A program made the position numbers and the translations under genes. Under the pieces are notes generated by a model that saw only the letters and a program-made list of their open reading frames with translations, was not told the origin of the DNA and ran no database searches. From positions 64,001-128,000 of the IMG/VR virus record IMGVR_UViG_3300017700_000931: a DNA stretch of 64,000 nt. One strand, 5' to 3'. How positions within the stretch are numbered: position 1 is the stretch's first letter; each line of letters begins with the position of its first letter. Origin of the DNA: a virus (lineage: Duplodnaviria; Caudoviricetes). This document shows, one piece after another, positions 1-31,275 of this stretch.

Positions 1-220
1 CTTCATGGGCACCTTTTCCCCATTTATACCATCCAAAAATGTTTGCAATGAAGAAAATTATCTGCAAAATTGCTTGTAAATAAATTTTTTCATTAAAATA
101 AATGACGAAAAAGAGAATTATTGCAACAATTCCGAAAAACCAACACCAAATATTTTGTTTTGCTGTCAAATAAACACAAATCAATGTGAAAATCATTGCA
201 GATATCTCCAAAAATTTCAT
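1..220 (-). CDS. pnuC: PnuC-family vitamin (nicotinamide riboside/thiamine) transporter, 5' part; runs off the window start
   Basis: Not in ORF track. ATG at 220 overlaps the TonB receptor stop. Translation MKFLEISAMIFTLICVYLTAKQNIWCWFFGIVAIILFFVIYFNEKIYLQAILQIIFFIANIFGWYKWG has the PnuC pattern (xNIWxW..G, Q...GWYxW). Confidence 0.85.
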   Translation of the reverse strand, partial: MKFLEISAMIFTLICVYLTAKQNIWCWFFGIVAIILFFVIYFNEKIYLQAILQIIFFIANIFGWYKWGKGAHE

Positions 221-2193
221 TATAAAGACATTTTGATTGTGATATAACCACTTAATGGTGCATTTACATAGAAATACCTAAGATTATCTACAACATACCC
301 ATTAGTATAGTACCGTACACTGGTAATATTGTTAACCCTACCACTAATAGTATAGTCTTTATAGGTATACCCTATACTACCCCCATATATGATAAAAGAG
401 GGGGTGGTGTAATTATTACTAAAATCTAAATACGAACTACTATGGTATTTGGCTGTAAAGGCTAAATTAAATGGTCCATACTTATAATTCAATTCAGCAT
501 TGCTAACTACCGGAGGTGTATACAATGGTTGGAATTTCATTCCATTATCGTTTATTCGATTATAAGATAGGTTCGTATTATTATTCAGGGTCAATCTACC
601 ATTTTCATTATCCAATAAAATAATTGATGTCTCGATTTCAATTCCACTTCTAAATGATTTATCAACATTCATCATTAATGGTAAACCGTTAGAGCCTAAA
701 GCACCTATCAGGGTTATTTCATTTTTGAAATCCATGAAGTATAGATTACTTTTAAATTTGAATCTTTCACTCAAATAACTAAAACCAACCTCATAATCCG
801 TAACCATTTCTGGATTTACTGCTGAATATGAAATTAGATTATCTTCGCCCATGAACATATCATTACGAGTAGGTTCTCGGTGAGATACTCCAACTGAAGC
901 ATATGCTCTAAAATGTCTACAATAATTAAATACTACACCAGCTTTAGGATTAAAGAATAACCAATTTAAGTCCGGCATGACTACATCACCATTATATTCA
1001 AATGTAACATATCTTAATTGGGCATCCCCGAACAATGTGTACTTTCCGATGTCATAACCACCTTTCATGAATCCACTCAATTCATTCTTAAAACCTTTAT
1101 TAGTGTATAACCTATTTTCAACGTGAGGTAAAAGAGCCATACCATGTTCTCTATTGTACATATTACCATGGATTCCAATATTAGCATTTAATTTATCACC
1201 AGAATATTTGTAGTTGGACATCAGGCCATAAAAATTAGAGGCTAATTGGTAATTCAAAACATCGGTACCAGCACCTAATGGATTTAAATCCAAATCCCAC
1301 TCACCATCAAGACGATTATAATAAATTGTTGTATTAATTAATGATTTATTACCCAATCTTTGAGTATGTTGTACTTGAATAAAATTTTGAATGAAATTAT
1401 CATCCTCAACTGGTGTGTTATAATTAGTTCTTGGGTCTGCATTAATATCCAATTCGGAAACTGCATTCCAAGACATTTGATTTAATGACCGACCAGTGAA
1501 TCCTGAAAATTTGATTACACTATTTTTTAAATGGTAACCACCGCTCATGAAGAACGAATAACCCTTACTTCCAGAATTATATTTGTAACCATCAGTATCA
1601 AATGTAGAAAAATTAGTATAGATTGCTAACCCTTTATCATTAATCCCAGTGCTGTGCGAAACATTAAATCGTTTTGTATTAAAAGAGCCATAACCTAATT
1701 CTACTTCGGTGAATTCTTTCACACCACTTGGACTCTCAAAATTGATTGAACCAGCATAAGAGGAAACACCATTCGTAGATGTTCCAACACCACGTTGAAT
1801 TTGCATTGATTGAATATTATTTGAAAATCCGGGGTAGTTAGAGAAATAAACACCTTGGTCTTCTGGTTCATTAAGGGGAACACCATTAAGTGTCATATTA
1901 ATTCTAGTTTGGTCAATCCCTCTAATTCTAAAATAAGTATAACCTTGTGGATGACCACCATCCGTTGATGATGTGATTGAAGGGGTTTTATCCAAAACTT
2001 GTGAAACTTCTTCACCTTGATATCCGGTTTTAATATCATCTCGACCAAGTGTTGTTTCAGTGACTGGAGTTTTGTTATCAGCTCTAACGCCAGTAACACT
2101 TACACCCTCAAGTGTAATCATCTTAGTTGTATCTTCCTGAGCATGAACAAAAACAAGACTCAACAGAGTAATACAAAATAATAATTGTTTCAT
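220..2193 (-). CDS. TonB-dependent outer-membrane receptor (thiamine/vitamin type)
   Basis: Signal peptide, plug motifs (IRGIDQTRINMTLNGVPLN, IQIQRG..S..G...AGSIN), beta-barrel pattern, C-terminal NNIT..RYY..GY; directly upstream of pnuC. Confidence 0.9.
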   Translation of the reverse strand: MKQLLFCITLLSLVFVHAQEDTTKMITLEGVSVTGVRADNKTPVTETTLGRDDIKTGYQGEEVSQVLDKTPSITSSTDGGHPQGYTYFRIRGIDQTRINMTLNGVPLNEPEDQGVYFSNYPGFSNNIQSMQIQRGVGTSTNGVSSYAGSINFESPSGVKEFTEVELGYGSFNTKRFNVSHSTGINDKGLAIYTNFSTFDTDGYKYNSGSKGYSFFMSGGYHLKNSVIKFSGFTGRSLNQMSWNAVSELDINADPRTNYNTPVEDDNFIQNFIQVQHTQRLGNKSLINTTIYYNRLDGEWDLDLNPLGAGTDVLNYQLASNFYGLMSNYKYSGDKLNANIGIHGNMYNREHGMALLPHVENRLYTNKGFKNELSGFMKGGYDIGKYTLFGDAQLRYVTFEYNGDVVMPDLNWLFFNPKAGVVFNYCRHFRAYASVGVSHREPTRNDMFMGEDNLISYSAVNPEMVTDYEVGFSYLSERFKFKSNLYFMDFKNEITLIGALGSNGLPLMMNVDKSFRSGIEIETSIILLDNENGRLTLNNNTNLSYNRINDNGMKFQPLYTPPVVSNAELNYKYGPFNLAFTAKYHSSSYLDFSNNYTTPSFIIYGGSIGYTYKDYTISGRVNNITSVRYYTNGYVVDNLRYFYVNAPLSGYITIKMSL

Positions 2194-2893: not shown

Positions 2894-3154
2894 TTACCAA
2901 ATATTGGCTATAATTTCAGTATTTATTATTTCAATTTTTAATTTGGCTCTAAATTTAATACTACCCTTGGTGTGTGGATTTTCTGGTGTTTCTTTAGTAG
3001 AGAATCCAACTCCGGGAGACACATCAATATGATTAACATAATGCGTCAGACCCATATGTTTAATCACCCACATTGGTATCGTATTATCTTCGAGATTTTT
3101 CTTATTAAAGTGAAAAATTATTTCTCGTCTTTTTGTGTCATCAATGATTAACAT
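2894..3154 (-). CDS. Hypothetical protein
   Basis: 86-aa ORF whose start overlaps the Pth2-like stop (coupled). Confidence 0.7.
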   Translation of the reverse strand: MLIIDDTKRREIIFHFNKKNLEDNTIPMWVIKHMGLTHYVNHIDVSPGVGFSTKETPENPHTKGSIKFRAKLKIEIINTEIIANIW

Positions 3155-3501
3155 GATAATACCCCTTTCCCCATTAATGGTAATGAACTAGTTAATTTAC
3201 GACTAGCCTCAGATGGGGCCAATGCAATTGCTGTTAATTCATTATTGATATCCGGTTCCCTAAATGGTGTTATCTTAATATAACGTTCAGCTGCTTTTAG
3301 AATGAATTGTTTTAACTCATCTTCATTAGCTACGGTTAGGAAAATTAAATAATTGGAATTTGTGTGCCAGTCTTTGGCCTCCGTTGGATGTCCATGTTGG
3401 AAATCGATTGCAGCATGAGCTGCTTGTACTGCTTGATAAGCAAGTGGTAAATCACGTCTAGTGATGACAATTAATTTGTTATTTTCAATCTAATTTTTCA
3501 T
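3148..3501 (-). CDS. Peptidyl-tRNA hydrolase PTH2-family protein with an in-frame TAG at codon 4
   Basis: Not in ORF track. MKN*IENNKLIVITRRDLPLAYQAVQAAHAAIDF...WHTNSNYLIFLTVANEDEL...FREPDINNELTAIALAP fits the PTH2 pattern (K.V.V.R.DL, Q.AHA, V..E.EL, T.LA..P). TAG at 3490-3492. Confidence 0.82.
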
Positions 3502-3522
3502 ACTTCTACTTTTTATTTTTAG

Positions 3523-3588
3523 TGCTCTTGGAGAGAATCGAACTCTCTGACACGGGTTTTAGAGGCCACCGTCACATCCTACAAGAAC
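3523..3588 (-). tRNA. Non-canonical 66-nt tRNA-like RNA with a putative CUA (amber) anticodon
   Basis: Acceptor GTTCTTG/CAAGAGC, perfect T arm GAGAG-TTCGATT-CTCTC, loop CTCTAAA; D arm reduced or absent and anticodon stem bulged. Confidence 0.65.
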
Positions 3589-3597
3589 AAATATGTT

Positions 3598-3720: not shown

Positions 3721-3776
3721 ACACATTACAAAGATAAGAACTTTATTTGAATTGTCCAAACATTTTTGCAATTATT

Positions 3777-4976: not shown

Positions 4977-5027
4977 CAATTTTTTACAAAGATACGAGAA
5001 TTTATTTTCACTCACAAGTTTAAAACA

Positions 5028-5052
5028 GAAAAGGACCCATTGGGTCCTTTTC
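5028..5052. terminator. Hairpin terminator
   Basis: GAAAAGGACCCA-T-TGGGTCCTTTTC right after the RF1-like stop. Confidence 0.7.
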
Positions 5053-5054
5053 AA

Positions 5055-5733
5055 TTATTTTAAAAGCTGAATTTTTCCTCTTAGGATATCTTTCAATTTG
5101 GCAGTTTTATTAGTAATATGGTCAACTACGATATCATCCTTTACACGATATGTTCTACGTTTATCACCACGATTACCAACCCCAATCTGATTTCTACGTT
5201 CTTTAACCTCTTCTTGGTCATGTCCGGTTTTATAAAACGTATTAACACGTAGTGTTATTTCCTTAAAGGCTGCTTCTTTATTTTTATGTTGGTCTCGGCC
5301 ATCACGAACCACTCTGATACCTGTTGCATTATGTGTCATGATAACACACGAATCAGTAGTATTTTTATGTTGACCGCCACTTCCAGTTCCTCTAGTAAAT
5401 TCAATACGGACTTCATCGTGTCTGATTTCGACATCCTTATATTGTGGTTTATCTAAAATTGCTACTGTGATTGATGAAGTTTGAATACGACCCTTCTTTT
5501 CTGTTGGAGGGATACGTTGCCACCTATGGTTGCCTACTTCATTGTTAAATATTTTTTTTACACCAGACCCGCTAAAGGCATAGACAGACAAATCCTTCTC
5601 TGTCTTCAACTAACATTCAGTTAATGTTGTTAATCTTCGCTGTTTTGATGTAGATATCTCTCATATCTCCCACCAATAACTTAGCATCTTTGCCACCTTC
5701 GGCATCTCTGATTTCTAAATAAATCGTTTCCAT
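5055..5733 (-). CDS. prfA-like: RF1-like class I peptide release factor lacking domain 1; needs TGA readthrough (5617-5619) and a +1 frameshift at CTT TAG C (5577-5571); about 225 aa
   Basis: Frame 1 gives LEIRDAEGGKDAKLLVGDMRDIY (cf. RF1 LEVRAGTGGDEAALFAGDL). The +1 frame gives SGSGV...EVGNHRWQRIPPTEKKGRIQTSSITVA (PxT motif) and TGSGGQHKN (GGQ). Confidence 0.88.
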
Positions 5734-5765
5734 CGTTTCTTGGTTTTAGGAACTTGTTATAAAAA

Positions 5766-5789
5766 AAAATGGAACCGAAGTTCCATTTT
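5766..5789. terminator. Hairpin terminator closing the ncRNA/tRNA transcript
   Basis: AAAATGGAAC-cgaa-GTTCCATTTT with an A tract. Confidence 0.65.
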
Positions 5790-5856
5790 AATGTTTCAGA
5801 ATCGTTTTTTTTTCTTATCCATAGAAGTTTTTAACTGCTGTATCGATTCTTCTTGT

Positions 5857-6720
5857 GGGGATGTGAGGGCTTTCTCCTCAAACTACGTATTACACATAGC
5901 ATCCCCAGTTAAGTCGAGCCTTGTTCACAAATACATTCTGGTGGGAATGTATTTGAGTAGATGTGCTCACCCACCTCCTGACGAGGTCTGCATCGACTTA
6001 GTGGTTGTAATAGGACCTTCCCCTATAGAACACCATTAAAGATGTTTACAACCTTGTTTGAAAATGTGGGGGCTTTCTCCCCAAACCATACATCTCTAGT
6101 ATAGCATCTCCATTTGTAGCGGGGGGTGGAATTGAACCACCGACCTCAAGGTTATGAGCCTTGCGAGCTACCACTGCTCTACCCCGCAATATCTTGTTCT
6201 TCGTAATGGAGCTTCCACCATTAACCCAGCTCTTAAACTGGCGAAGAATTTTTACGCTGAAATTCAAACATTTCATTGTAATATCTGACAGGTTAGTTTT
6301 TTTAACGCTTTAGAATTTGAGTCTAATGTTTTAAATGTTTGCTGTATCTAACCATTTACGCTGTGGCCCGTCGAAGATTCAACTTCAATCTATATTGCTA
6401 TAGAACGGACCTTGTGTGGGGAAGAAGGGGCTCTAACCCTTTCTACCTTTCAGTGTGCTCAAATAATATTAGTTACCTAATGAGTACTTTCCTCGTTTAC
6501 ACTACTTCCCCGTATAATAATTTTGTCCAGAATGATGGTTTAAGCTTTTTTACATGTGCTTAGCACCATGGCAGTTATTCAATTCGGATTACCGTGGGGG
6601 AACCTATGTACTAAAACCCCTTTTCTTCTTAACTGTAGATTTGTTTTTGTTTTACGGTTTGCCGTAATCATTCTTCTGACAATTTTTTAATCTCAATAAA
6701 TAAAAGAACGCTTTCTTTGT
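5857..6720 (-). ncRNA. Large modular structured RNA with embedded tRNA-Met (GOLLD/ROOL-like architecture or new family)
   Basis: No credible ORF; GC-richer than flanks; eight or more closed helical domains joined by short A/C-rich linkers between promoter 6734 and terminator 5766. Confidence 0.7.
6117..6188 (-). tRNA. tRNA-Met(CAT), initiator-like
   Basis: TGCGGGG/CCCCGCT with a 1:72 mismatch, anticodon arm CAAGG-CTCATAA-CCTTG, T-loop GTTCAATT; only two G-C pairs next to the anticodon loop. Confidence 0.9.
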
Positions 6721-6797
6721 TTTAAATATAATACAAAGATACGAAAGTTATTTTAAATAGCAAGCTTTTTTTGAAATATTTTTAAAAAAAATTTATT

Positions 6798-7007
6798 TTA
6801 ATTCAAAAGTAGTTTATTTAAAACACACGCAAACCTATATGAATTAGGGCTTTCAGCCTTTAATATCGCTAATTCTCTTAATGTCCCCATTTCGATAAAT
6901 TTATAGTGCTCAATAATTTCCGGCTGAGTTTCTTGAATGATATTTCTATATCGAACATAAAATTTGTACCTATCAATTACCTCTCTAATCTTAAATGTTT
7001 TTTTCAT
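6798..7007 (-). CDS. Hypothetical protein
   Basis: 69-aa ORF coupled to the upstream gene. Confidence 0.6.
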   Translation of the reverse strand: MKKTFKIREVIDRYKFYVRYRNIIQETQPEIIEHYKFIEMGTLRELAILKAESPNSYRFACVLNKLLLN

Positions 7008-7296
7008 CCTTTAACGATTGTTCATATTCTTCTTTATCTTCTTTCATTTCCATGTGTTCTTTTATTGGATTTATAATCCAAGCAAATATCAATAAAATGA
7101 GTATAAATACTAACCAATAGGCAACGCCAATTAAATATAGCCAGAAAGCCCAACCGTTATATGAGCTGGTATATGATAATCTAGCATCTATGCGCCAAAA
7201 AATTAAAAACCAGACGAAAGCTAAGACCATCCTACCTATGTTAGTTAACACTAACCATTTAGGGATTAGCTTAATGATGTCAATCAATTTTTCCAT
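6991..7296 (-). CDS. Small membrane protein (2 predicted TM helices)
   Basis: Two hydrophobic stretches and a charged C-terminus; TATTTAT motif upstream. Confidence 0.7.
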   Translation of the reverse strand: MEKLIDIIKLIPKWLVLTNIGRMVLAFVWFLIFWRIDARLSYTSSYNGWAFWLYLIGVAYWLVFILILLIFAWIINPIKEHMEMKEDKEEYEQSLKDEKNI

Positions 7297-7333
7297 GTTT
7301 ATAAATATGGAAAAATTTAGGAAAAAACGTAAA

Positions 7334-7555
7334 TTACATTGATTTTTGTGGGTCTCCGTCTAAAACTTCAACAATAATAAAAATACCATGTTTTTTTAGT
7401 ATGTGATGAACAACAAAAACTACCTTATAATATTTTTTATCTTCCAAATAAATAAATTCTCCAGAACGGGGAATATGTTTGATTTTGATTAGTGGGATAA
7501 TCGTCTTCCAATCCTTATCTAAGATTGAAACACTATATCTATTGAATAGCCCCAT
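7334..7555 (-). CDS. Hypothetical protein
   Basis: 73-aa ORF overlapping the peptidase stop. Confidence 0.65.
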   Translation of the reverse strand: MGLFNRYSVSILDKDWKTIIPLIKIKHIPRSGEFIYLEDKKYYKVVFVVHHILKKHGIFIIVEVLDGDPQKSM

Positions 7556-8351: not shown

Positions 8352-8466
8352 CTAGCAAAGATATGGGTTTTTTTATTAAAAACCAAATTTATCTGACTTT
8401 ACTATTTATTTTGGTTTGAAATGATATTTATTTAATAGATAACATATTACTAAAACTATAGAAATC

Positions 8467-8932: not shown

Positions 8933-9054
8933 CCTTAATTTGTTTAAAGATAAATACTCTGGAAAACAAAAAAAGCCCACCGAGTGTGAGCTTTTATGTC
9001 CTAGTTAAAGGTCCAATTTCTGACTTAGCGAATTTAAGCCAGAAGCAGTTTGCG

Positions 9055-9434
9055 TGGAGCTGGAGGGAGTCGAACCCTCGTCCTAATCTATTCTTCAATC
9101 ATTTTCTACGTGCTTAGTTCATTTTTTCTTTTCGAACAAAATATCAAATTTATTTACAACCCCATTTGCAAAGTTGCCCAGCCTTTTTATTTACATCACA
9201 GGTTAGGTCCTAGTGATGGGTTTCGTGAGTTTCCTCAGTTTTCCTATTGCATCAATTAGGCTGCAACAGCCTCTCCAGCAACAACTTCTACAGAAGCGTT
9301 AGCAAGGAAGTTTTCGGAAATATTGAAAATATTGCCATTTGAACTTTTGTAAAATATTGTTTTAACTGCTTATTCACATCGCAGTGCATGCTTACAATTT
9401 ACGACCATAGACAGTCAAATCCAAGGTCAGCCCC
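9055..9434 (-). ncRNA. ssrA: tmRNA
   Basis: 5' GGGGCTGACCTTGGATTTGAC and 3' GGGTTCGACTCCCTCCAGCTCCA form an Ala acceptor with G3-U70. Tag ORF 9336-9256: GNIFNISENFLANASVEVVAGEAVAA*. Confidence 0.95.
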
Positions 9435-9507
9435 AATAAAAAAAGAACGTTAGTCTTAATAACTATCACAAAGATACTAAAAAAATTCTAAATGACAAGC
9501 TTTTTTG

Positions 9508-13282: not shown

Positions 13283-13909
13283 TTATTCCTCCTCTAAGGT
13301 TGATTCAATTGTATCGATAATTTCTTTAGATACTCGATTATATTCTTCAACATCAGGATAATTTAAAATATTGATTACCCCAGTATATTTTCTTAATTTC
13401 TGATTAATATAATCAGCATTTTCAATCATATCATAAATTTTAATAACTACTTCATCCATCTGTCCTTCTATTTGTGTAAACTCTGGTAATAGAATTCTAT
13501 TACCATAAAATTCTCTAGATTCCATTTCATGTGTGACAATTATTTCACCAAGTTTTAGATAATCATCAAATTCTATTCTATATCTACCAGCTATAACTTG
13601 ATGGCCAGAACCATCAGTTTGTATGTATTCTAAAGTATCTATTAACGGACCCAATTTAGAATGCATAAATAATTTATTAGCACCACCTTTTAACGTATTT
13701 CTATGAATATATGCAGAAAGTTGGTTTATTTTAGTGATTAGAGTTTGATTCCAATCACTTTGAGAAATACTATGAGGGTCATATTTATCTCCACCATTAT
13801 AGTCCCAATCAAGAATTAAATTATCTTCAAATTGTGTTAAATCTTCTGGATAAACATATGTAATACAACCAGTATTATCTACAAGTCTTAATTTAGGCAT
13901 CTTTTTCAC
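13283..13909 (-). CDS. Protein containing a gp23-type major-capsid-like segment
   Basis: WDYNG...DWNQTLITKINQLSAYIHRNTLKGGAN...DTLEY...AGRY resembles my recollection of large-phage gp23-family capsid proteins; not searched. Confidence 0.55.
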   Translation of the reverse strand: MKKMPKLRLVDNTGCITYVYPEDLTQFEDNLILDWDYNGGDKYDPHSISQSDWNQTLITKINQLSAYIHRNTLKGGANKLFMHSKLGPLIDTLEYIQTDGSGHQVIAGRYRIEFDDYLKLGEIIVTHEMESREFYGNRILLPEFTQIEGQMDEVVIKIYDMIENADYINQKLRKYTGVINILNYPDVEEYNRVSKEIIDTIESTLEEE

Positions 13910-14584: not shown

Positions 14585-14731
14585 CAGAATACGGGGGCTT
14601 TTTAATTCCAAACCCAGTTAGGAACGATGGTTTTTTTGTTGAGCTAGATGCCCGATTTTGTAGGTACCAATCAAAACCTACTTTCTGTAGAATGTATCAA
14701 TTTGTTTTTTTACAGTTGCAGAAAGTATTCT
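14585..14731 (-). ncRNA. Candidate small RNA downstream of the DUF2828 gene
   Basis: Closing stem AGAATAC/GTATTCT, TTTCTGCAAC after the 5' strand, internal hairpins; bracketed by hairpins at 14751-14782 and 14544-14569. Confidence 0.4.
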
Positions 14732-14789
14732 TCTAGATAGCGTAAAAACCGAATGGGTATCAACCTAAATCAATACCCATTCATTATTT

Positions 14790-16220
14790 TTAAATTGAAA
14801 CTGCCGAGTAACGGTCAGCACCAATAATATTCATCATCATTGAATAAGGGTTTAAATCCTTACCAGACAATAGACTTGTCAATAATGCCGGACTGAATCC
14901 AGATACTAACGCAGTTCCATTTTTATCGTGTTGAACTGGTTTATTTTTATCACCATGTGATTTAATATTCCAGAATACGATTTTTGGTAAAACGTAACCA
15001 GCTTCAGTATACATGTTTTCAATCATTTTAATGGCTGTTGCATTATAACGAGTACATGAATCAAATTCCATATCACTAAGGATTAGAATCATTGTTGGCA
15101 TTTCTTCAGCCGGAACTGAATGTTTAACCGCTTGGGTTAGAACTGTCTTAAATGCAGCTTCCAAATTAGTATTCATATCCCATTGTGCTCTGGATAATTG
15201 ATTACATCTTTCGGACAATTTACCTTTAAGAATTTGCAATTCTGGACGAGCCGAGAATGTCAAGAACGCATCTTTGAACAAACCAACGTTTCTCTCAGAG
15301 ATATACAATCCAAGTGATAATGCAACATCCATTGCACTAACATTTGGGTTATTACCTGCCGCAGTACACATTGAACCAGATACATCCACCATTGGTAGAA
15401 CTCTTTCTTCATTTCCAGACATATAGTTTGGAAGTGCGTTCCATTGTGCATCAGCTCCCCTAGCATTACCATTTCTAAGGTTCTTAATAATATCATAAGG
15501 GTAGACAGCACCAGCATTAATCTTTGTTTCACCTTTTTCAAGTGAATTCAAATACTCAGTGAATCTAGCATGGTCATTCTTACCAAATGCTTTCATGTAA
15601 TCAGACATCGCTTTAGATGGAACGTGAGCATAATTAATAGCTTGCCATTCTTTAGCACACATTAATTGTTCTACGGTTTTTGACAACCCGACAATCAATT
15701 TTCTATAGTCCTTTGGAGCTAACTTAAGATAAGTTCTAATTGCATTAGCTTGTTTTTTGTTAGCACGATTTTTTCCATTACCTCTTGGGCACCATTTAGC
15801 GCACAATTGATTTCCGGCTGACAAACCTTTAGAGATTAATTCTAGTGCATCCTTTTCCAATTCTGTACCAATTAATTCTACAACATCTGACCATCTTCCA
15901 TATTCTGGAATTAGGTGAATGTTTTTTCTCATGACTTCAGTATGGTTATTAGCCAAGTGTGTCATGATATCAATTGCTGTTTGTCTTTCACCAGCACCAC
16001 CTCTAACATCTCTTACCCAGAATAAGATTTTCATTGCAGTCAATGCATCTTCTGAATAAGCTTTTATGAAGGCGTTAATTTTTCTTTGTTTTTCAGCACC
16101 CCTTACGGCACCAATCATTGAAAATAAATCCACACAGTGGTTAAGGGTTGAGGAATTTGTAGACATTCCATTTTGAGTCACTGAATCCTCAGTTCTCATA
16201 GCATTTAATAATTTGCTCAT
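14790..16220 (-). CDS. DUF2828 / TROVE(Ro60)-like protein with C-terminal vWA domain
   Basis: RDVRGGAGER, EYGRW.D, AKWCPR, vWA MIDAS DVSGSM, ILSDMEFD, FWN and SGFSP. Confidence 0.88.
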   Translation of the reverse strand: MSKLLNAMRTEDSVTQNGMSTNSSTLNHCVDLFSMIGAVRGAEKQRKINAFIKAYSEDALTAMKILFWVRDVRGGAGERQTAIDIMTHLANNHTEVMRKNIHLIPEYGRWSDVVELIGTELEKDALELISKGLSAGNQLCAKWCPRGNGKNRANKKQANAIRTYLKLAPKDYRKLIVGLSKTVEQLMCAKEWQAINYAHVPSKAMSDYMKAFGKNDHARFTEYLNSLEKGETKINAGAVYPYDIIKNLRNGNARGADAQWNALPNYMSGNEERVLPMVDVSGSMCTAAGNNPNVSAMDVALSLGLYISERNVGLFKDAFLTFSARPELQILKGKLSERCNQLSRAQWDMNTNLEAAFKTVLTQAVKHSVPAEEMPTMILILSDMEFDSCTRYNATAIKMIENMYTEAGYVLPKIVFWNIKSHGDKNKPVQHDKNGTALVSGFSPALLTSLLSGKDLNPYSMMMNIIGADRYSAVSI

Positions 16221-25432: not shown

Positions 25433-27772
25433 TCACCCTTTTTTTCTTTGAATTATCTTTTTAACTTCATCAATGGTTCTACCAGTTTTTTTGGCTACCT
25501 CGTAATATACTGCATCATCAGAAATAACAGAATCTTTCGTTTGTTTCAATTTAACCACCTTATCAACGGCACCAGTACTGCAACCACCATTTTGGGCCTT
25601 TTTATTGTTGTTTAATTTAGTACAATCGTCCAATTTGACAAAACCACCTTCTGGATAAGCGGTTGATGTAGTATTCACCGATTCCTTTATAGTCTTATCA
25701 ACAATCTTTCCCTTTGGATACATCGTTTTTTTACCAAATCTCATATTTGCTTTATCTTTGGCCCAGATTTTTGGTTGAACAAAAGACCCACTTGAAGCAG
25801 CTGTTGTTGTTTCCTCCACTTCATTTGGTTTAAGAGCTTCTTTAAGACCATCAAATACAATTGAATATAATTCGTCAAATACAGAATAGGCATCACGAAT
25901 TTTTTCAGATTCTTGATTGAAAATCAATTTATCTTTTTTTGTTTCTTTATTAAAAATATACAATAATTCACTATTGGAAATTTTACCATCTTCTCTTAAT
26001 AATGAAATAGAATACTCTAGTGTTTTTTCATTATCATTTTTATTAATGACTTTATCAATAATAAAAACACCTAACGCCGGGTGTTGAAAATTTTTGTATT
26101 TTAAATTACTCAATTTTTCATTTTCAGAATCATTACCTTCAACCTCACCAACAATTTTTTTCATTTCAGACGCTGGGTCATTCTTATTGATTGTTGTTGA
26201 TGAACCCATCGGTGCAACAAATGCTCCACTGGATGATGCTGTTGTTTCACTCAAGGATAAATTACTAAGTGTTGATATCAATTCTTGTTTTTTTGCTGGG
26301 TCACTAATATGTTTAACTAACGCCATCAATTCATCAATCATTTCTTGGTCAATTTCAACTAATTGTTTACCATTTTCATAATCAGAATAGCCTTTACCTA
26401 GCGATAAATTAGCATAGTTATCATTAACATAGGAATCTATGATATTACTATCCATTTCCCAATCCCCATATTCAACATCCATCATACCGTCTTCATCTCG
26501 ACCTATTGGTGTTTCATCACGACTAGCATAATTAGCGAATTCATTTTTATCAACTGTTTCAACATTAAAAACATAGTACTTACCATCCTTTTCAAAGATT
26601 GCATTTTCTTGATGCCACCATAGTAAATCTAATGGTCTATTTTGTGGGGTTATTCCCGGATTAGGTTCTTTTTGATTCCAAGGCGCACTAGGGTCTTCAT
26701 TAGCACCCATTGGATAGTTATCCTCCTCAATTGGTTTATCAGTTTCTGATTTTCTTCTTTTTAGTTCTTCAGCTCTTTTTTGTTTAATTTTAGAAGCGAT
26801 TGATTCAGGTGATGGTTTTGGACCTTCCTTCCTTTTCAATTGTTGTTGAAGATTTGTTTTGATTTTATCAGATGATTCCGCAATTTCTGGAACATACTCT
26901 TTGTATAATGCTTTTACATTATCGTAGAAATTTGGTTTTAATATTTTAATCAATTTTTTACCATTAATTAAATTATGACCAATCATCCCAATTTCAAACA
27001 TTTTTTTGGTTAAATCGTTTTTACTAACACCACGGTCTCTCCAAAATTTATTTATATGCTCATCAGTTGGGTCCGTTAAAAGTTCTTTAAGGAATTTTAT
27101 TACCTGTTGACCAAATTCAATGATATCTACTTGCGAAGCCGGATTACCCTTATTTTCATTAAAGGATTTAGTTGTTTTAATATTTTCTTTTTCAGTTTGA
27201 GGCTTAAAATCACCCCTAAGTGTATCTTCAAATTTTATATTGGCTTTAGGTATTGACCTACCAGCAGATTTAAAATTATTAGTTACCTTTGTTGATGGCC
27301 TCATTGGTTTTGGTGGCATTTTAAATTCATGTTCGTTGGATTCACCGACTGAATTAGTTGGGCATAGTTCTTTTGGGTTACCAATTAATTGAACTCCCAA
27401 TCCTTCACCTTCTTCTTTTACAATTTCTTCTTGAAGTTCTTTATTATAGAATCCTTTCGCATAAGCGGCACACATTTCTTTACCATTATTAAAATCACTA
27501 CTATCCTTTGAATATGGTTGCCAAGTTTTAGCCCTATCACTATAGAAACTTCTACCTAGATAAAAACCTTTTGGTGTTTTATACATCATGATATCACTCA
27601 CTGGCTCATTATCACGGCTCTTAGCGACCACTTCGAATTTCTCATCAATTCTATTTTCAAACAATCGATTATATTGTTCACTAGTAATTTTTACCAACTT
27701 TTTTTTTGGTAATTGTTCTTCTAGACTTTGTAACATCACAATTTGTGATTCAGTTAATTTAATTTTTCCCAT
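25433..27772 (-). CDS. Large late hypothetical protein with repeated ETT(T)A(A)SS(S)GxFVxP motifs
   Basis: Start trimmed to MGKIKLTE; two similar motifs near 26212-26255 and 25772-25820. Confidence 0.78.
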   Translation of the reverse strand: MGKIKLTESQIVMLQSLEEQLPKKKLVKITSEQYNRLFENRIDEKFEVVAKSRDNEPVSDIMMYKTPKGFYLGRSFYSDRAKTWQPYSKDSSDFNNGKEMCAAYAKGFYNKELQEEIVKEEGEGLGVQLIGNPKELCPTNSVGESNEHEFKMPPKPMRPSTKVTNNFKSAGRSIPKANIKFEDTLRGDFKPQTEKENIKTTKSFNENKGNPASQVDIIEFGQQVIKFLKELLTDPTDEHINKFWRDRGVSKNDLTKKMFEIGMIGHNLINGKKLIKILKPNFYDNVKALYKEYVPEIAESSDKIKTNLQQQLKRKEGPKPSPESIASKIKQKRAEELKRRKSETDKPIEEDNYPMGANEDPSAPWNQKEPNPGITPQNRPLDLLWWHQENAIFEKDGKYYVFNVETVDKNEFANYASRDETPIGRDEDGMMDVEYGDWEMDSNIIDSYVNDNYANLSLGKGYSDYENGKQLVEIDQEMIDELMALVKHISDPAKKQELISTLSNLSLSETTASSSGAFVAPMGSSTTINKNDPASEMKKIVGEVEGNDSENEKLSNLKYKNFQHPALGVFIIDKVINKNDNEKTLEYSISLLREDGKISNSELLYIFNKETKKDKLIFNQESEKIRDAYSVFDELYSIVFDGLKEALKPNEVEETTTAASSGSFVQPKIWAKDKANMRFGKKTMYPKGKIVDKTIKESVNTTSTAYPEGGFVKLDDCTKLNNNKKAQNGGCSTGAVDKVVKLKQTKDSVISDDAVYYEVAKKTGRTIDEVKKIIQRKKG

Positions 27773-29961: not shown

Positions 29962-31275
29962 TTAATCAATTCTTGGTCTTTTAAAATAAAACTTCTTTGG
30001 TTCATTAGTTCTAATTTCTTTGTTAGAACCAACTTTTTTAGGTTGGGGAACATTAACTGAATAACCCCTACTACCTTGTTTTATCTCCTTTATTTCTTCA
30101 CGTTTAACAGTACCAGTAGGTATAACAGGTTCTTGTTTGGCTTCTACAATATCTTCTGGTTTCAATACTTCTTCTTGTTCATCAATAATTTTGACTTCTT
30201 CCACTACATCAATAACCTCTGGAATATTGATTACCTCTGGCATAACGGTTTCCTCATTGATGCTATCCTCAATATTTTCATTAGTACTACCAGATGGTTC
30301 CGGCTCATCAATTATTTCATCCACCACTTCAGTATCTATAATATCAACTGTATTAATATTTTTCGGTGTAATTAAAATTGGTTTATCTGCATCAGGTAAT
30401 TTTACTGGGTCGTCACCATCTGGTTTTTTTTTGTTTAATTCAAAAACCTTATTAGCGGCTAATAATAATGAAATGGCCATTGGGTCGAAGATAAAGATGA
30501 TTAACAAAACTATCCAATTGATAATTGAATCCATAGGTCTACCAGTTAATGTTGAAATGTATTTTAACGGACCTATTTCAGCAGCTACATCTGATGTTGA
30601 TTTTAATTCTAAAATTTGAACCTGATATGAACTAACTGAATCTTGTAATGCTGAATTTGATTTAACTATGGTATCAATATCAGAAGTTAATTTTTGAATC
30701 TCGGTATTCGCAATATCAATTTCACCCCTAGTTCTTTTAGCGTTGGTGCTTTGCCCCTTTGAGACATATTCATCCAACCTAGCTTCTTGTTGTGCTCTTA
30801 AATTAGATAACATACCGACCCTATCACGTTTGGTGCCGATTACTTTATTATTATCATCAATTTTTATTTGAAAGATATCTCTTTTACCCTCAAGGATTAA
30901 AACTTCACCCTCATGAACTTCCATTTTATTGGCAGTATCTTGATAGGCATTTGTTAAAAAACCATAAATACCAACTGATGTTAAAAACATTGTTGCAATC
31001 ACACCAATACCCAAATATGTTCGTAATGAAACTAATCGTTTAAAAAAATAACTAATCTTAGTGTGCCCCTCACGAGACGGCATCGTTTTCTTACCATATC
31101 TATGAAGATATAATGTAGTAACAACCTTAGCTGATTCTATAATGGCCATAACAACCATAACAATCATAGCCTCACCAGCAAATAACTTTCCCCATCCAGC
31201 AACTGATATGTATGCGGCTGAACCTGCTAATGTGATAGCAAATAATCCTAAAATATATCCTAAGTGTAATTTCAT
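29962..31275 (-). CDS. Multi-TM coiled-coil membrane protein
   Basis: Three N-terminal TMs (ESAKVV, TSVGIYGFL), coiled coil, EIGPLKY..IFIFDPMA, acidic tail. Confidence 0.78.
   Translation of the reverse strand: MKLHLGYILGLFAITLAGSAAYISVAGWGKLFAGEAMIVMVVMAIIESAKVVTTLYLHRYGKKTMPSREGHTKISYFFKRLVSLRTYLGIGVIATMFLTSVGIYGFLTNAYQDTANKMEVHEGEVLILEGKRDIFQIKIDDNNKVIGTKRDRVGMLSNLRAQQEARLDEYVSKGQSTNAKRTRGEIDIANTEIQKLTSDIDTIVKSNSALQDSVSSYQVQILELKSTSDVAAEIGPLKYISTLTGRPMDSIINWIVLLIIFIFDPMAISLLLAANKVFELNKKKPDGDDPVKLPDADKPILITPKNINTVDIIDTEVVDEIIDEPEPSGSTNENIEDSINEETVMPEVINIPEVIDVVEEVKIIDEQEEVLKPEDIVEAKQEPVIPTGTVKREEIKEIKQGSRGYSVNVPQPKKVGSNKEIRTNEPKKFYFKRPRID

What the first reader, a model, noticed from the sequence alone, without database searches (positions are those of the whole stretch)
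5857..6720. About 850-nt ornate non-coding RNA with an embedded initiator-like tRNA
Seen (minus strand): closed domains at 6418-6511 (GGGGAAG/CTTCCCC with a T-arm-like AAGGG-TTAGAGC-CCCTT), 6365-6411, 6289-6353, 6197-6248, the tRNA 6117-6188, 6060-6111, 6003-6053, 5910-6000 (11-bp hairpin; possible GGTGGG/CCCACC loop pairing) and 5857-5906. They are joined by 2-11 nt A/C-rich linkers in most cases, with GNRA loops, between one promoter and one terminator. Known: GOLLD and ROOL are giant phage-associated RNAs near tRNAs, and GOLLD can enclose tRNAs. Inference: either a divergent GOLLD/ROOL in a Bacteroidota phage or a new giant RNA family.
Basis: partly seen in the sequence, partly recalled or inferred. 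Interest (0 to 1): 0.8.

Follow-up and report, generated by a model that had tools for sequence, protein, structure and literature searches.

The report
Phage array of tRNA-like small RNAs
A 362-kb phage carries a roughly 965-base non-coding transcription unit that is most likely a string of separate small RNA genes rather than one giant RNA. It holds one initiator-like tRNA, seven tRNA look-alikes (five shrunk to about 50 bases) and three 'handle' RNAs of the kind found beside Ro60-like genes in many phages.

Summary
On the minus strand, one promoter box (6734-6741) and one terminator (5766-5789) bracket about 965 nt with no reading frame.

The GOLLD/ROOL reading fails. Rfam gives only the tRNA, even at E<=10.

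The unit is modular, with three kinds of part:
- An initiator-like tRNA-Met.
- Seven elements with a perfect 7-bp closing stem. Six of them also carry a T-arm-like hairpin on the stem's 3' strand. Five are followed by A-C, as this phage's true tRNAs are. Five are ~50-nt Y shapes.
- Three 'handle' RNAs (AAGAAU..UNCNGCAA..AUUCUG).

The handle motif also flanks DUF2828 genes in 22 of 58 phage loci. This phage's DUF2828 protein (14790-16220) is predicted to fold like Ro60.

Relatives shuffle, lose and interrupt the modules. Their fuller versions pass Rfam's tRNA threshold, and one metagenomic relative has a compensated Y module right after its tRNA-Met.

Processing into small RNAs is inferred, because no RNA-seq was available.

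This scan has already noted the handle-RNA/Ro60-like pairing in other phage genomes. The 50-nt Y modules are what is new at this locus.

The parts
6734..6741 (-). Promoter -7 box TATCTTTG (Bacteroidota type TAnnTTTG). It is the only such box on this strand between 6741 and the terminator.
   Evidence: The same octamer lies upstream of the tmRNA (9469-9476), the peptidase gene (8356-8363), the suppressor-tRNA region (3729-3736) and the TonB-receptor-like gene (2212-2219). Relatives have TATCTTTG or TACCTTTG at the head of their arrays.
6525..6680 (-). D1: handle RNA with a ~130-nt body. The 5' strand is GUC-AGA-AGAAUGAU followed by UACGGCAA. The 3' strand is AUCAUUCU-G-GAC.
   Evidence: z = -2.66. 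It is homologous to L112:1739-1878 and to the first elements of L013 and L124. Its body shares the CCCCC..GCCAUGGUGCU module that stands free in L003, L005 and L009.
6418..6511 (-). D2: tRNA-like element with a large insert. It has a 7-bp closing stem GGGGAAG/CUUCCCC and a T-arm-like hairpin AAGGG-UUAGAGC-CCCUU directly on the 3' strand, then A-C.
   Evidence: It is homologous by sequence to L112:1887-1986 and has the same closing stem as L120:2140-2232. Both of those pass Rfam's tRNA gathering score (33.5 and 44.7 bits); D2 itself does not.
6365..6411 (-). M1: 47-nt Y module (7-bp stem, 6-bp hairpin with GCAA loop, 5-bp hairpin), followed by A-C.
   Evidence: (z = -3.57).
6291..6353 (-). D3: variant handle RNA, GGUUAG-AUACAGCAA ... 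CUAACC-UG. The helix sequence has changed with compensation, while the single-stranded CAGCAA box and the 3' UG are kept.
   Evidence: Sequence and fold. The counterpart at the same place in L112 is 1992-2051, AAAGAAAGGGUUCAGCA..CCUUUCUG.
6252..6281 (-). Small hairpin, UUACAAUGAAAUGUUUGAAUUUCAGCGUAA.
   Evidence: The counterpart is L112:2060-2091, with the same ..UUUGAUUUCAGCG.. sequence.
6197..6248 (-). M2: 52-nt Y module, 8 nt upstream of the tRNA.
   Evidence: z = -3.04. The counterpart L112:2095-2160 keeps the AAUGG/CCAUU arm but has a wholly different, fully paired closing stem (GGGAGUC/GACUCCC against UUCUUCG/CGAAGAA).
6116..6188 (-). tRNA-Met (CAU), initiator-like.
   Evidence: ARAGORN and Rfam tRNA at 66.9 bits. 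Features are a U1xU72 mismatch, A11:U24 and a CUCAUAA loop. It is conserved at 84-94% in relatives.
6060..6111 (-). M3: 52-nt Y module with hairpin-2 loop AGAAAGC.
   Evidence: It is a paralogue of M6 with compensated changes.
6003..6053 (-). M4: 51-nt Y module, followed by A-C.
   Evidence: found by the M3/M6 covariance model at E = 0.004 in 20 kb; z = -2.97.
5910..6000 (-). D4: 91-nt closed domain with an 8-bp closing stem and a 10-11-bp hairpin. A 5-nt loop pairing GGUGG/CCACC is possible. It is followed by A-C.
   Evidence: z = -4.09. No homologue was found, so there is no comparative support.
5857..5906 (-). M6: 50-nt Y module, GGGGAUG ... CAUCCCC, followed by A-C-A-A.
   Evidence: z = -3.71. 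L112:2244-2293 has the same closing stem with both arms compensated.
5797..5853 (-). D5: short handle RNA, AGAAGAAUCG-AUACAGCAG ... CGAUUCUG.
   Evidence: It is clearly homologous to L120:2238-2286 and to the handle that precedes the terminator in L003-L011 and L020.
5757..5789 (-). Intrinsic terminator: a 10-bp stem with UUCG loop and a U9 tract. It lies about 20-30 nt before the release-factor gene, which starts at 5735.
   Evidence: Every relative has a terminator at the same place.
14790..16220 (-). Associated gene: a DUF2828/DUF7788 protein predicted to fold like Ro60 (TROVE ring plus vWA). It is the likely partner of the handle RNAs.
   Evidence: Pfam. AlphaFold2 model with pLDDT 88.7. 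The top 13 PDB matches are all Ro60/TROVE, at E 6e-9 to 5e-5 over the full length.
14585..14734 (-). Associated RNA: a long handle RNA directly downstream of the Ro60-like gene (AGAAGAAUAC-UUUCUGCAA ... GUAUUCUG).

Best explanation
The locus is a tRNA-operon-type transcription unit of about 965 nt. I read it as a string of independently folding small-RNA genes, not as one integrated giant RNA.

Shown:
- One promoter box and one terminator bracket the unit.
- It contains one initiator-like tRNA-Met.
- It contains seven elements with a perfect 7-bp closing stem of acceptor-stem length (D2, M1, M2, M3, M4, D4, M6). In all but D4, a 5-6-bp hairpin with a ~7-nt loop stacks on the 3' strand of that stem, in the acceptor/T-arm geometry.
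- It contains three 'handle' RNAs (D1, D3, D5). These have a conserved helix AGAAU/AUUCU, extended by covarying pairs, and a single-stranded UNCNGCAA box.
- The closing stem of five of the seven elements is followed by A-C, the same N73-C74 signature as this phage's true tRNA genes.
- Fuller homologues in related phages pass Rfam's tRNA threshold but carry a GNRA-capped rod or odd loops where the anticodon would be.
- The handle motif is tied to the Ro60-like DUF2828 gene across phages.

Inferred:
- The primary transcript is cut by the tRNA-maturation enzymes (RNase P at the 5' ends, 3' trimming and CCA addition).
- This yields the tRNA, a set of non-decoding acceptor/T-arm mimics and the handle RNAs.
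- The handle RNAs then bind the phage's Ro60-like protein in the way Y RNAs bind Ro60.
- The five ~50-nt Y modules are pseudo-tRNAs that have lost one arm but remain under selection for their fold.
For: - Boundaries: promoter box and terminator. No ORF is possible in any code.
- Modules: MFE and z-scores. The Y-shape descriptor is clustered here and rare elsewhere.
- Closing stems: in 20 modules from this phage and relatives, 139 of 140 closing-stem cells pair. With shuffled partners the mean is 81 and the maximum 104. Every position shows three or more pair types. Sixteen of the 20 have a hairpin of at least 5 bp and a 4-7-nt loop on the 3' strand.
- 3' signature: ARAGORN's calls for the phage's 57 tRNAs end in N-C (54) or CCA (3), mostly followed by AA. 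Five of the seven modules here, and the relatives' modules shown, are followed by A-C.
- tRNA origin: L120:2140-2232 (44.7 bits), L124:2144-2215 (39.5), L112:1887-1986 (33.5) and L124:1857-1928 (32.3) exceed Rfam's tRNA gathering score of 29. L112 aligns with this locus from the promoter through the tRNA (86.5 bits). L112 has a Y module, with M6's closing stem and compensated arms, 6 nt after its tRNA-Met.
- Modularity: relatives carry different subsets and orders of the modules. ORFs with weak GIY-YIG or HNH matches sit between modules. Folding restricted to spans of 165 nt gives -250.1 of -261.3 kcal/mol.
- Handle RNAs: five invariant pairs plus two pairs showing CG/AU/GC and GC/UA/AU; 0 of 500 shuffles reach the covariation score. 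The motif occurs within flanks of about 500 nt of DUF2828 genes in 22 of 58 loci, with only one match on the opposite strand. Some bodies are permuted tRNAs (T arm, acceptor hairpin, D arm) as in YrlA (L065 and L069).
- Partner protein: the DUF2828 protein is predicted to fold like Ro60.
Against: - No transcript data could be obtained, so co-transcription and processing are inferences.
- The five Y modules, D2 and D4 do not hit Rfam's tRNA model even at E<=10.
- Hairpin-2 loops such as AGAAAGC lack the U at T-loop position 1.
- M2 and M3 are not followed by A-C.
- Only one Y module was found outside this genome (L112). The strict descriptor found none in about 1 Mb (both strands counted) of related loci, so comparative support for the Y shape rests mostly on paralogues.
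- D3 and D5 are not exceptional in folding energy.
- Binding of the handle RNAs to the Ro60-like protein is untested.
Confidence: 0.65

Rival explanations
1. It is one functional giant RNA: a new GOLLD/ROOL-like class. The ~965-nt chain stays intact and its many three-way junctions pack into a particle or scaffold that displays the initiator tRNA.
For: - There is a single promoter and a single terminator.
- Linkers between domains are very short (2-11 nt).
- The overall z-score is -4.84.
- Several loops are GNRA-type, and a loop-loop pairing is possible in D4.
- GOLLD and ROOL are phage RNAs found near tRNA islands, and GOLLD can carry tRNAs in its linker (PMC12286853).
Against: - No Rfam hit to GOLLD, ROOL, OLE or raiA at E<=10.
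- No long-range helix is needed: 96% of the folding energy is local.
- Module content and order differ between related phages, and ORFs are inserted between modules.
- Short linkers are equally typical of this phage's ordinary tRNA arrays.
- Most modules end with the tRNA-gene 3' signature.
Confidence: 0.15
2. The Y modules and D2 are decaying tRNA pseudogenes with no function of their own. Only the tRNA-Met, and perhaps the handle RNAs, matter.
For: - They lack anticodon loops and fail the tRNA model.
- Their number varies between relatives, and most are private to this phage.
- The genome holds many other odd tRNA-like elements in its tRNA arrays.
Against: - Every closing stem and hairpin is perfectly paired, with G-U wobbles but no mismatches.
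- The paralogues M3 and M6 differ by compensated changes in the closing stem and hairpin 1.
- The L112 orthologue has both arms compensated.
- The z-scores of -2.1 to -3.7 are not what drifting pseudogenes would keep.
Confidence: 0.12
3. The array is mainly a regulatory leader for the release-factor gene. That gene has no recognisable promoter of its own and would be expressed by read-through of the terminator at 5766-5789.
For: - Only about 20-30 nt separate the terminator from the start codon at 5735.
- No TAnnTTTG box lies between them.
- The order array, terminator, release-factor gene is conserved in all relatives.
Against: - A 965-nt leader built of tRNA-like genes and handle RNAs is not needed for attenuation.
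- The same module types occur elsewhere in the genome without a release-factor gene, for example in the tRNA array at genome 15112-15177 and downstream of the DUF2828 gene.
- This reading is compatible with the best explanation rather than an alternative to it.
Confidence: 0.05

Closest known systems
Bacterial and phage Ro60 (Rsr) with Y RNAs YrlA/YrlB (Chen et al. 2014, PMC4201824)
   Same: - The RNAs are closed by a stem joining their 5' and 3' ends, with a conserved protein-binding-type sequence in the 5' strand.
- Several RNAs come from one precursor.
- tRNA-like domains are present, and in Mycobacterium smegmatis YrlA a 7-bp acceptor-like stem allows RNase P cleavage and CCA addition.
- The RNAs are genomically linked to a Ro60-type gene.
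- Some relatives' handle RNAs carry the same permuted T / acceptor-hairpin / D body as YrlA.
   Different: - The protein is the DUF2828/DUF7788 type, not Pfam TROVE. It has no sequence-level match to solved Ro60 structures.
- The conserved RNA sequence is AAGAAU..UNCNGCAA..AUUCUG rather than GNCGAAN0-1G.
- No Rfam Y-RNA family matches.
- At this locus most tRNA-like parts are free-standing modules outside any handle, 8 kb from the protein gene.
GOLLD and ROOL RNAs (Rfam; Kretsch et al. 2025, PMC12286853)
   Same: - Phage-encoded, large and highly structured.
- Located near tRNAs; GOLLD can enclose tRNAs and one example lies next to a tRNA-Met.
   Different: - No covariance-model match at any threshold tried.
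- No conserved 3' core and no long-range architecture.
- The modules are independently gained and lost between relatives.
Phage tRNA gene arrays with co-transcribed stable RNAs of unknown role (e.g. the T4 tRNA cluster with its species 1 and 2 RNAs; from my own knowledge, not checked here)
   Same: - One transcript carries closely spaced tRNA-shaped units separated by a few nucleotides.
- Homing-endonuclease-type ORFs are inserted in relatives.
   Different: Here only one unit is a decoding tRNA. The rest are non-decoding mimics, down to 47-52 nt with just two arms.
Dictyostelium Class I RNAs (Rfam RF01414; Kjellin et al. 2021, PMC7919456)
   Same: - About 60 nt long.
- A short stem joins the 5' and 3' ends, a conserved ~11-nt single-stranded motif lies next to the 5' strand, and the rest is variable.
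- A relative's handle RNA (L124:1386-1435) aligns to the whole RF01414 model at 25.4 bits.
   Different: - That score is below the gathering score of 41.5, at E = 0.49.
- The handles of this window give no hit.
- The biology is different (amoebae; partner protein Rnp1A).
- My recollection that the amoebal motif contains UUACAGCAA could not be checked in the text held.
Arm-less mitochondrial tRNAs of nematodes and mites, and tRNA-like minihelices such as the tmRNA tRNA-like domain (from my own knowledge)
   Same: Acceptor stem plus T-arm-type stack with one or more arms missing; total length 45-55 nt.
   Different: Those tRNAs still decode (or, in tmRNA, are charged through G3:U70). The modules here have no anticodon-type loop and no G3:U70 (one search lists the stems).

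Membership tests
GOLLD RNA (Rfam) | Match to the family covariance model, which captures the conserved 3' domain. | tested here: not met
   cmscan of the window at gathering thresholds and of 5000-7500 at E<=10 with permissive filters. No GOLLD hit.
ROOL RNA (Rfam) | Match to the family covariance model, which captures a multi-pseudoknot conserved core. | tested here: not met
   No ROOL hit.
GOLLD/ROOL-type giant RNA (as a kind) | A single long RNA whose domains depend on each other: long-range helices or a conserved overall architecture across homologues. | tested here: not met
   Local folding gives 96% of the MFE. Homologous loci differ in module content and order and carry ORF insertions.
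GOLLD/ROOL-type giant RNA (as a kind) | Accumulates as a full-length RNA and forms an RNA-only multimer. | not testable with these tools
tRNA (Rfam RF00005): the Y modules and D2 | Score at or above the gathering score of the tRNA covariance model. | tested here: not met
   Only 6117-6188 hits, and no other tRNA hit appears at E<=10. Homologous or equivalent modules in relatives do pass, at 32.3-44.7 bits against a cut-off of 29.
tRNA-like acceptor/T-arm mimic (as a kind) | A 7-bp closing stem with a 5-bp stem and ~7-nt loop directly stacked on its 3' strand. | tested here: met
   All seven closing stems here are perfect 7-bp helices. Six of the seven have the 3'-adjacent hairpin. Over 20 modules, 139 of 140 closing cells pair.
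tRNA-like acceptor/T-arm mimic (as a kind) | T-loop sequence (U at position 1, A at position 5, purine at position 4). | tested here: inconclusive
   D2's UUAGAGC and the relatives' UUCAAGU, UGUGAAU and UGAAAAU fit. M3 and M6 (AGAAAGC) and the genome-26012 module (AGCAAUA) keep R4-A5 but have A at position 1.
tRNA-like acceptor/T-arm mimic (as a kind) | Cleaved by RNase P and given CCA. | not testable with these tools
   Only the shared A73-C74-type trailer points that way.
Bacterial initiator tRNA | Mismatch at 1:72, purine11:pyrimidine24, and three G-C pairs at the foot of the anticodon stem. | tested here: inconclusive
   U1xU72 is non-canonical and A11:U24 is present. Only two G-C pairs (G30:C40, G31:C39) are present, with A29:U41 as the third pair (alignment).
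Y RNA / YrlA (Ro60 partner): the handle RNAs | Encoded next to a Ro60-type gene. | tested here: met
   The motif lies +10 to +64 nt after the DUF2828 gene, or within a few hundred nt before it, on the gene's strand in 22 of 58 loci, with one opposite-strand match. This window has one copy at 14585-14734, directly after the gene. The protein is predicted to fold like Ro60.
Y RNA / YrlA (Ro60 partner): the handle RNAs | The 5' and 3' ends form a stem that carries a conserved binding sequence. | tested here: met
   Five invariant and two covarying pairs; 0 of 500 shuffles reach the covariation score.
Y RNA / YrlA (Ro60 partner): the handle RNAs | Match to an Rfam Y-RNA model, or the GNCGAAN0-1G motif. 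| tested here: not met
   No Rfam hit. The nearest sequence is GUCAGAAG in D1, which has an extra A.
Y RNA / YrlA (Ro60 partner): the handle RNAs | Physical binding to the Ro60-type protein. | not testable with these tools
   No protein-RNA test is available.
Dictyostelium Class I RNA (RF01414) | Score at or above the gathering score of 41.5 bits. | tested here: not met
   No hit in this window. The best hit in a relative is 25.4 bits at E = 0.49.

The most novel reading that the evidence does not exclude
The ~50-nt Y modules are a new class of minimal tRNA mimic. On this reading the host's tRNA-maturation enzymes cut them out of the array. They then work together with the handle RNAs and the phage's Ro60-like protein as a phage-run system acting on tRNA metabolism or RNA surveillance, for example as decoys for tRNA-targeting host defences or as tethers to tRNA-binding enzymes. 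The system would be built around the phage's own initiator tRNA.
Probability: 0.15. Interest if true: 0.8.

Novelty: new variant of a known kind. Interest (0 to 1): 0.6.

Why it matters
Giant phages carry large sets of translation-related genes. This window alone holds a tmRNA, a release factor, a suppressor tRNA, ClpP and DnaJ.

This locus shows that such phages also maintain whole arrays of non-decoding tRNA look-alikes and Y-RNA-like 'handle' RNAs beside their initiator tRNA.

Three things would follow if the inferred steps hold:
- A graded series runs from cloverleaf pseudo-tRNAs in relatives to two-armed 50-nt modules here. That series would be a natural experiment on how little of a tRNA is needed to be kept by selection, presumably for recognition by RNase P, CCA-adding enzyme or other tRNA-binding proteins.
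- The link to a Ro60-like protein would extend Ro/Y-RNA biology to a second protein family that is widespread in phages. I found no description of its RNA partners in the papers searched.
- It also warns against reading every long structured phage region near tRNAs as a GOLLD-like giant RNA.

Tried and rejected
- GOLLD, ROOL, OLE, RNase P and Y-RNA membership: rejected by cmscan.
- GenBank phages by blastn: only the tRNA matched.
- Exact-pattern scans of IMG/VR for the M3/M6 type. The full pattern gave nothing. The hairpin-2 pattern gave 14 loci without tRNA context, which I judged to be chance.
- MAFFT alignment of the five Y modules was structurally inconsistent and was not used. A covariance model from M3 and M6 found M4 (E = 0.004) and M2 (E = 1.1) but not M1.
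- A naive 'best 8-mer complement' test for the handle stem did not separate signal from an AT-rich background. It was replaced by anchored tests.
- The generic promoter pattern TAnnTTTG is not enriched in the window. Only the specific TATCTTTG box is informative.
- Y modules as decoding mini-tRNAs: rejected, because the hairpin-1 loops are 4-7 nt and share no anticodon-loop pattern.
- AlaRS-type charging: none of the stems listed has G3:U70.
- One giant handle enclosing the whole unit: rejected. The 5' strand of D1 and the 3' strand of D5 would form only 4-5 pairs, whereas the local partners form 6-7.
- Sequence search of the DUF2828 protein against solved structures found nothing. Only the fold comparison did.
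Full report
**Setting.** The window is bases 64001-128000 of a complete 362,532-bp phage genome with direct terminal repeats. GC content is about 31% and ARAGORN tRNAs. The first 12 kb of the window is a translation and proteostasis neighbourhood, all on the minus strand. It holds tRNA-Cys, a release-factor gene (5055-5735), the locus studied here, a tmRNA (9052-9434), ClpP and DnaJ.

**Observation.** The minus strand between 6741 and 5757 has no usable reading frame: all six frames are closed by many stops, TAA included. It starts with TATCTTTG (6734-6741). The same octamer precedes the tmRNA, the peptidase gene, the suppressor-tRNA region and the TonB-receptor-like gene, and no second copy lies inside the unit on this strand. 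It ends with a strong intrinsic terminator at 5789-5766.

Folding gives -261.3 kcal/mol, z = -4.84.

**Not GOLLD or ROOL.** Rfam 15 reports only the tRNA in this region, both at gathering thresholds over the whole window and at E<=10 with permissive filters over 5000-7500. GenBank phages match only the tRNA.

**Three kinds of module.**

(a) *The tRNA-Met.* It has a non-canonical 1:72 pair, A11:U24 and two of the three initiator G-C pairs. 'Initiator-like' is therefore fair but not complete.

(b) *tRNA-shaped elements without an anticodon.* D2, M1, M2, M3, M4 and M6 share a perfect 7-bp closing stem and a 5-6-bp hairpin with a loop of about 7 nt placed directly on the 3' strand of that stem. 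This is the acceptor/T-arm geometry. D4 has an 8-bp closing stem but no such hairpin.

- Five of them (M1, M2, M3, M4, M6) are 47-52-nt Y shapes with no junction nucleotides.
- A strict descriptor finds about one such shape per 6-9 kb per strand in this AT-rich genome, nearly all of it weak A/T pairing.
- After an energy filter, only 7 hits remain in 1.78 Mb (both strands counted) of this genome plus related loci. Four of them lie in this 560-nt stretch, with M2 just missing the filter. One more lies at genome 25963-26012 in another RNA-rich region.
- Single-module z-scores are -2.1 to -3.7.
- At least seven G-U pairs fix the folding strand as the minus strand.

(c) *Three 'handle' RNAs.* D1 and D5 have the helix AGAAU/AUUCU extended by variable pairs. 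The helix is preceded by A(A/G), followed on the 3' side by G, and has a single-stranded box UNCNGCAA after the 5' strand. D3 keeps the box and the 3' UG but has a compensated helix (GGUUAG/CUAACC).

**The handle RNAs and the Ro60-like protein.**

- The 476-aa protein at 14790-16220 is Pfam DUF2828 plus DUF7788.
- An AlphaFold2 model built on 25 homologues has pLDDT 88.7.
- Its 13 best PDB matches are all Ro60/TROVE proteins over their full length (Xenopus, human, Deinococcus, Thermus phage phiLo), at E 6e-9 to 5e-5.
- A long handle RNA lies directly downstream of the gene, at 14585-14734.
- In 58 IMG/VR loci that encode homologues (34-66% identity), the motif GAAU-N(2-8)-UNCNGCA(A/G) lies 10-64 nt after the gene in 14 loci, 277 nt after it in one, and within a few hundred nt before it in seven more. 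It is always on the gene's strand, and there is a single match on the other strand.
- In an alignment of 19 short handle RNAs, five pairs are invariant and two show CG/AU/GC and GC/UA/AU. No shuffle out of 500 reaches the covariation score, and slid registers pair at only 30-50% against 90%.
- Some relatives' handle RNAs enclose a permuted tRNA (T arm, acceptor-like hairpin, D arm; L065 and L069). This is the architecture described for YrlA (PMC4201824).
- Another copy sits between tRNA-Gln and tRNA-Tyr in this phage's own tRNA array (genome 15112-15177).

**The tRNA-like modules are tRNA-derived and share tRNA gene punctuation.** ARAGORN's calls for the phage's 57 tRNAs end in N-C (54) or CCA (3), and 31 are followed by AA. 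After the closing stem, D2, M1, M4, D4 and M6 have A-C, while M2 and M3 do not. The modules of relatives shown all have A-C.

Relatives were reached through the downstream release-factor gene: 19 viral and 68 metagenomic loci. They keep the synteny tmRNA, array with tRNA-Met, terminator, release factor, suppressor tRNA, tRNA-Cys.

The closest for the RNA is L112, with nhmmer 86.5 bits from the promoter through the tRNA. Its array reads D1, D2, D3, small hairpin, M2-like, tRNA-Met, one Y module, terminator.

- The Y module of L112 (2244-2293) has M6's closing stem GGGGAUG/CAUCCCC, while both arms differ with full compensation.
- The M2-like module keeps the AAUGG/CCAUU arm, but all seven closing pairs are replaced.
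- Over 20 modules from this phage and relatives, 139 of 140 closing-stem cells pair. Shuffled partners give a mean of 81 and a maximum of 104. Every position shows at least three pair types.
- In relatives the equivalent modules are 67-99-nt cloverleaves. Four of them exceed Rfam's tRNA gathering score (32.3-44.7 bits against 29), yet they carry a GNRA-capped rod or odd loops where the anticodon loop should be.
- The modules of this window fail the tRNA model.

I read this as a reduction series from pseudo-tRNA cloverleaves to two-armed mini-modules that are still under selection for pairing.

**Array or giant RNA?**

For one RNA: a single promoter and terminator, linkers of 2-11 nt, and many three-way junctions.

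Against it:
- The linkers are no shorter than in the phage's ordinary tRNA arrays.
- Folding with pairs limited to 165 nt recovers -250.1 of -261.3 kcal/mol, and only 26 of 281 expected pairs span more than 170 nt.
- Related phages carry different subsets and orders of the modules.
- In L006, L009, L010 and the 362-kb relative, ORFs lie between modules. Two of them have weak GIY-YIG or HNH matches, below Pfam's cut-offs.
- The D1 body contains a module that is free-standing elsewhere.

I therefore favour a polycistronic small-RNA array (0.65) over a single giant RNA (0.15). Processing by RNase P and 3' enzymes is an inference. It rests on the 7-bp stems, the T-arm-like stack and the shared trailer, and on the precedent of M. 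smegmatis YrlA. No expression data could be obtained.

**Limits.**
- D4 has no homologue, so its proposed loop pairing is untested.
- D2, D3 and D5 are not exceptional in folding energy.
- The Y shape has only one orthologue outside this genome.
- The role of the mimics is unknown.
- The resemblance of the handle to Dictyostelium Class I RNAs rests on shared architecture and one sub-threshold Rfam hit in a relative (25.4 bits). It is a lead, not membership.

**Prior notes of this scan.** The pairing of DUF2828-type Ro60-like proteins with 'handle' RNAs has already been noted on other phage genomes. Those notes agree with my independent tests. I found no paper that describes these RNAs. What this locus adds is the embedding of handle RNAs in an initiator-tRNA operon together with minimal Y-shaped tRNA mimics.

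Noticed in passing
G000:C1:25531-26100 (minus strand; outside the window): A second RNA-rich non-coding region. It holds a sixth Y module (25963-26012: GGGGGUG ... CACCUCC, UU linker, hairpin-2 loop AGCAAUA), a 123-nt element with an 8-bp closing stem and a true T arm (25620-25742), and ARAGORN's 'tRNA-???' (25456-25530).
   Followed up: partly
G000:C1 tRNA arrays at 13.4-16.3 kb, 30.5-33.8 kb and 55-58.4 kb (minus strand; outside the window): Many gaps between called tRNAs contain tRNA-shaped elements that ARAGORN does not call. Some have large inserts (13506-13610, 30587-30714). One looks like a D-arm-less tRNA with a UUC anticodon loop (within 31170-31270). Several are 67-91 nt with T arms (15599-15671, 15762-15828, 55689-55781, 56623-56790, 57831-57921, 58066-58137).
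   Followed up: partly
window 5735-5789: The release-factor gene starts about 20-30 nt after the array's terminator, with no promoter box between. The same layout is found in all relatives, so its expression may depend on terminator read-through.
   Followed up: no
window 5055-5735 and 3148-3590: The release-factor reading frame is interrupted: there is an in-frame TGA after ..INNIN, then the frame changes near CTT TAG C. A Pth2-like ORF has TAG as its fourth codon, next to a shrunken tRNA-like gene with a CUA loop. Both were seen on reading the sequence, and earlier notes of the scan cover them.
   Followed up: no
L006:3632-3720, L009:2960-3048, L010:3627-3713, L013:3364-3449, L020/G001: Relatives carry a second 85-89-nt CAU-anticodon tRNA with a long extra arm between the initiator-like tRNA and the 3' handle RNA. 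This phage lacks it at that place and has M3-M4-D4-M6 there instead.
   Followed up: no
L004:3463-3524, L005:3186-3241, L011:3371-3428: Another recurrent module in relatives, GGGACAG ... UGGACAGUCCC (about 58 nt). It is absent from this window.
   Followed up: no
window 220-2193: A phage-encoded TonB-dependent-receptor-like protein (Plug plus beta-barrel domains). This is unusual cargo for a phage.
   Followed up: no
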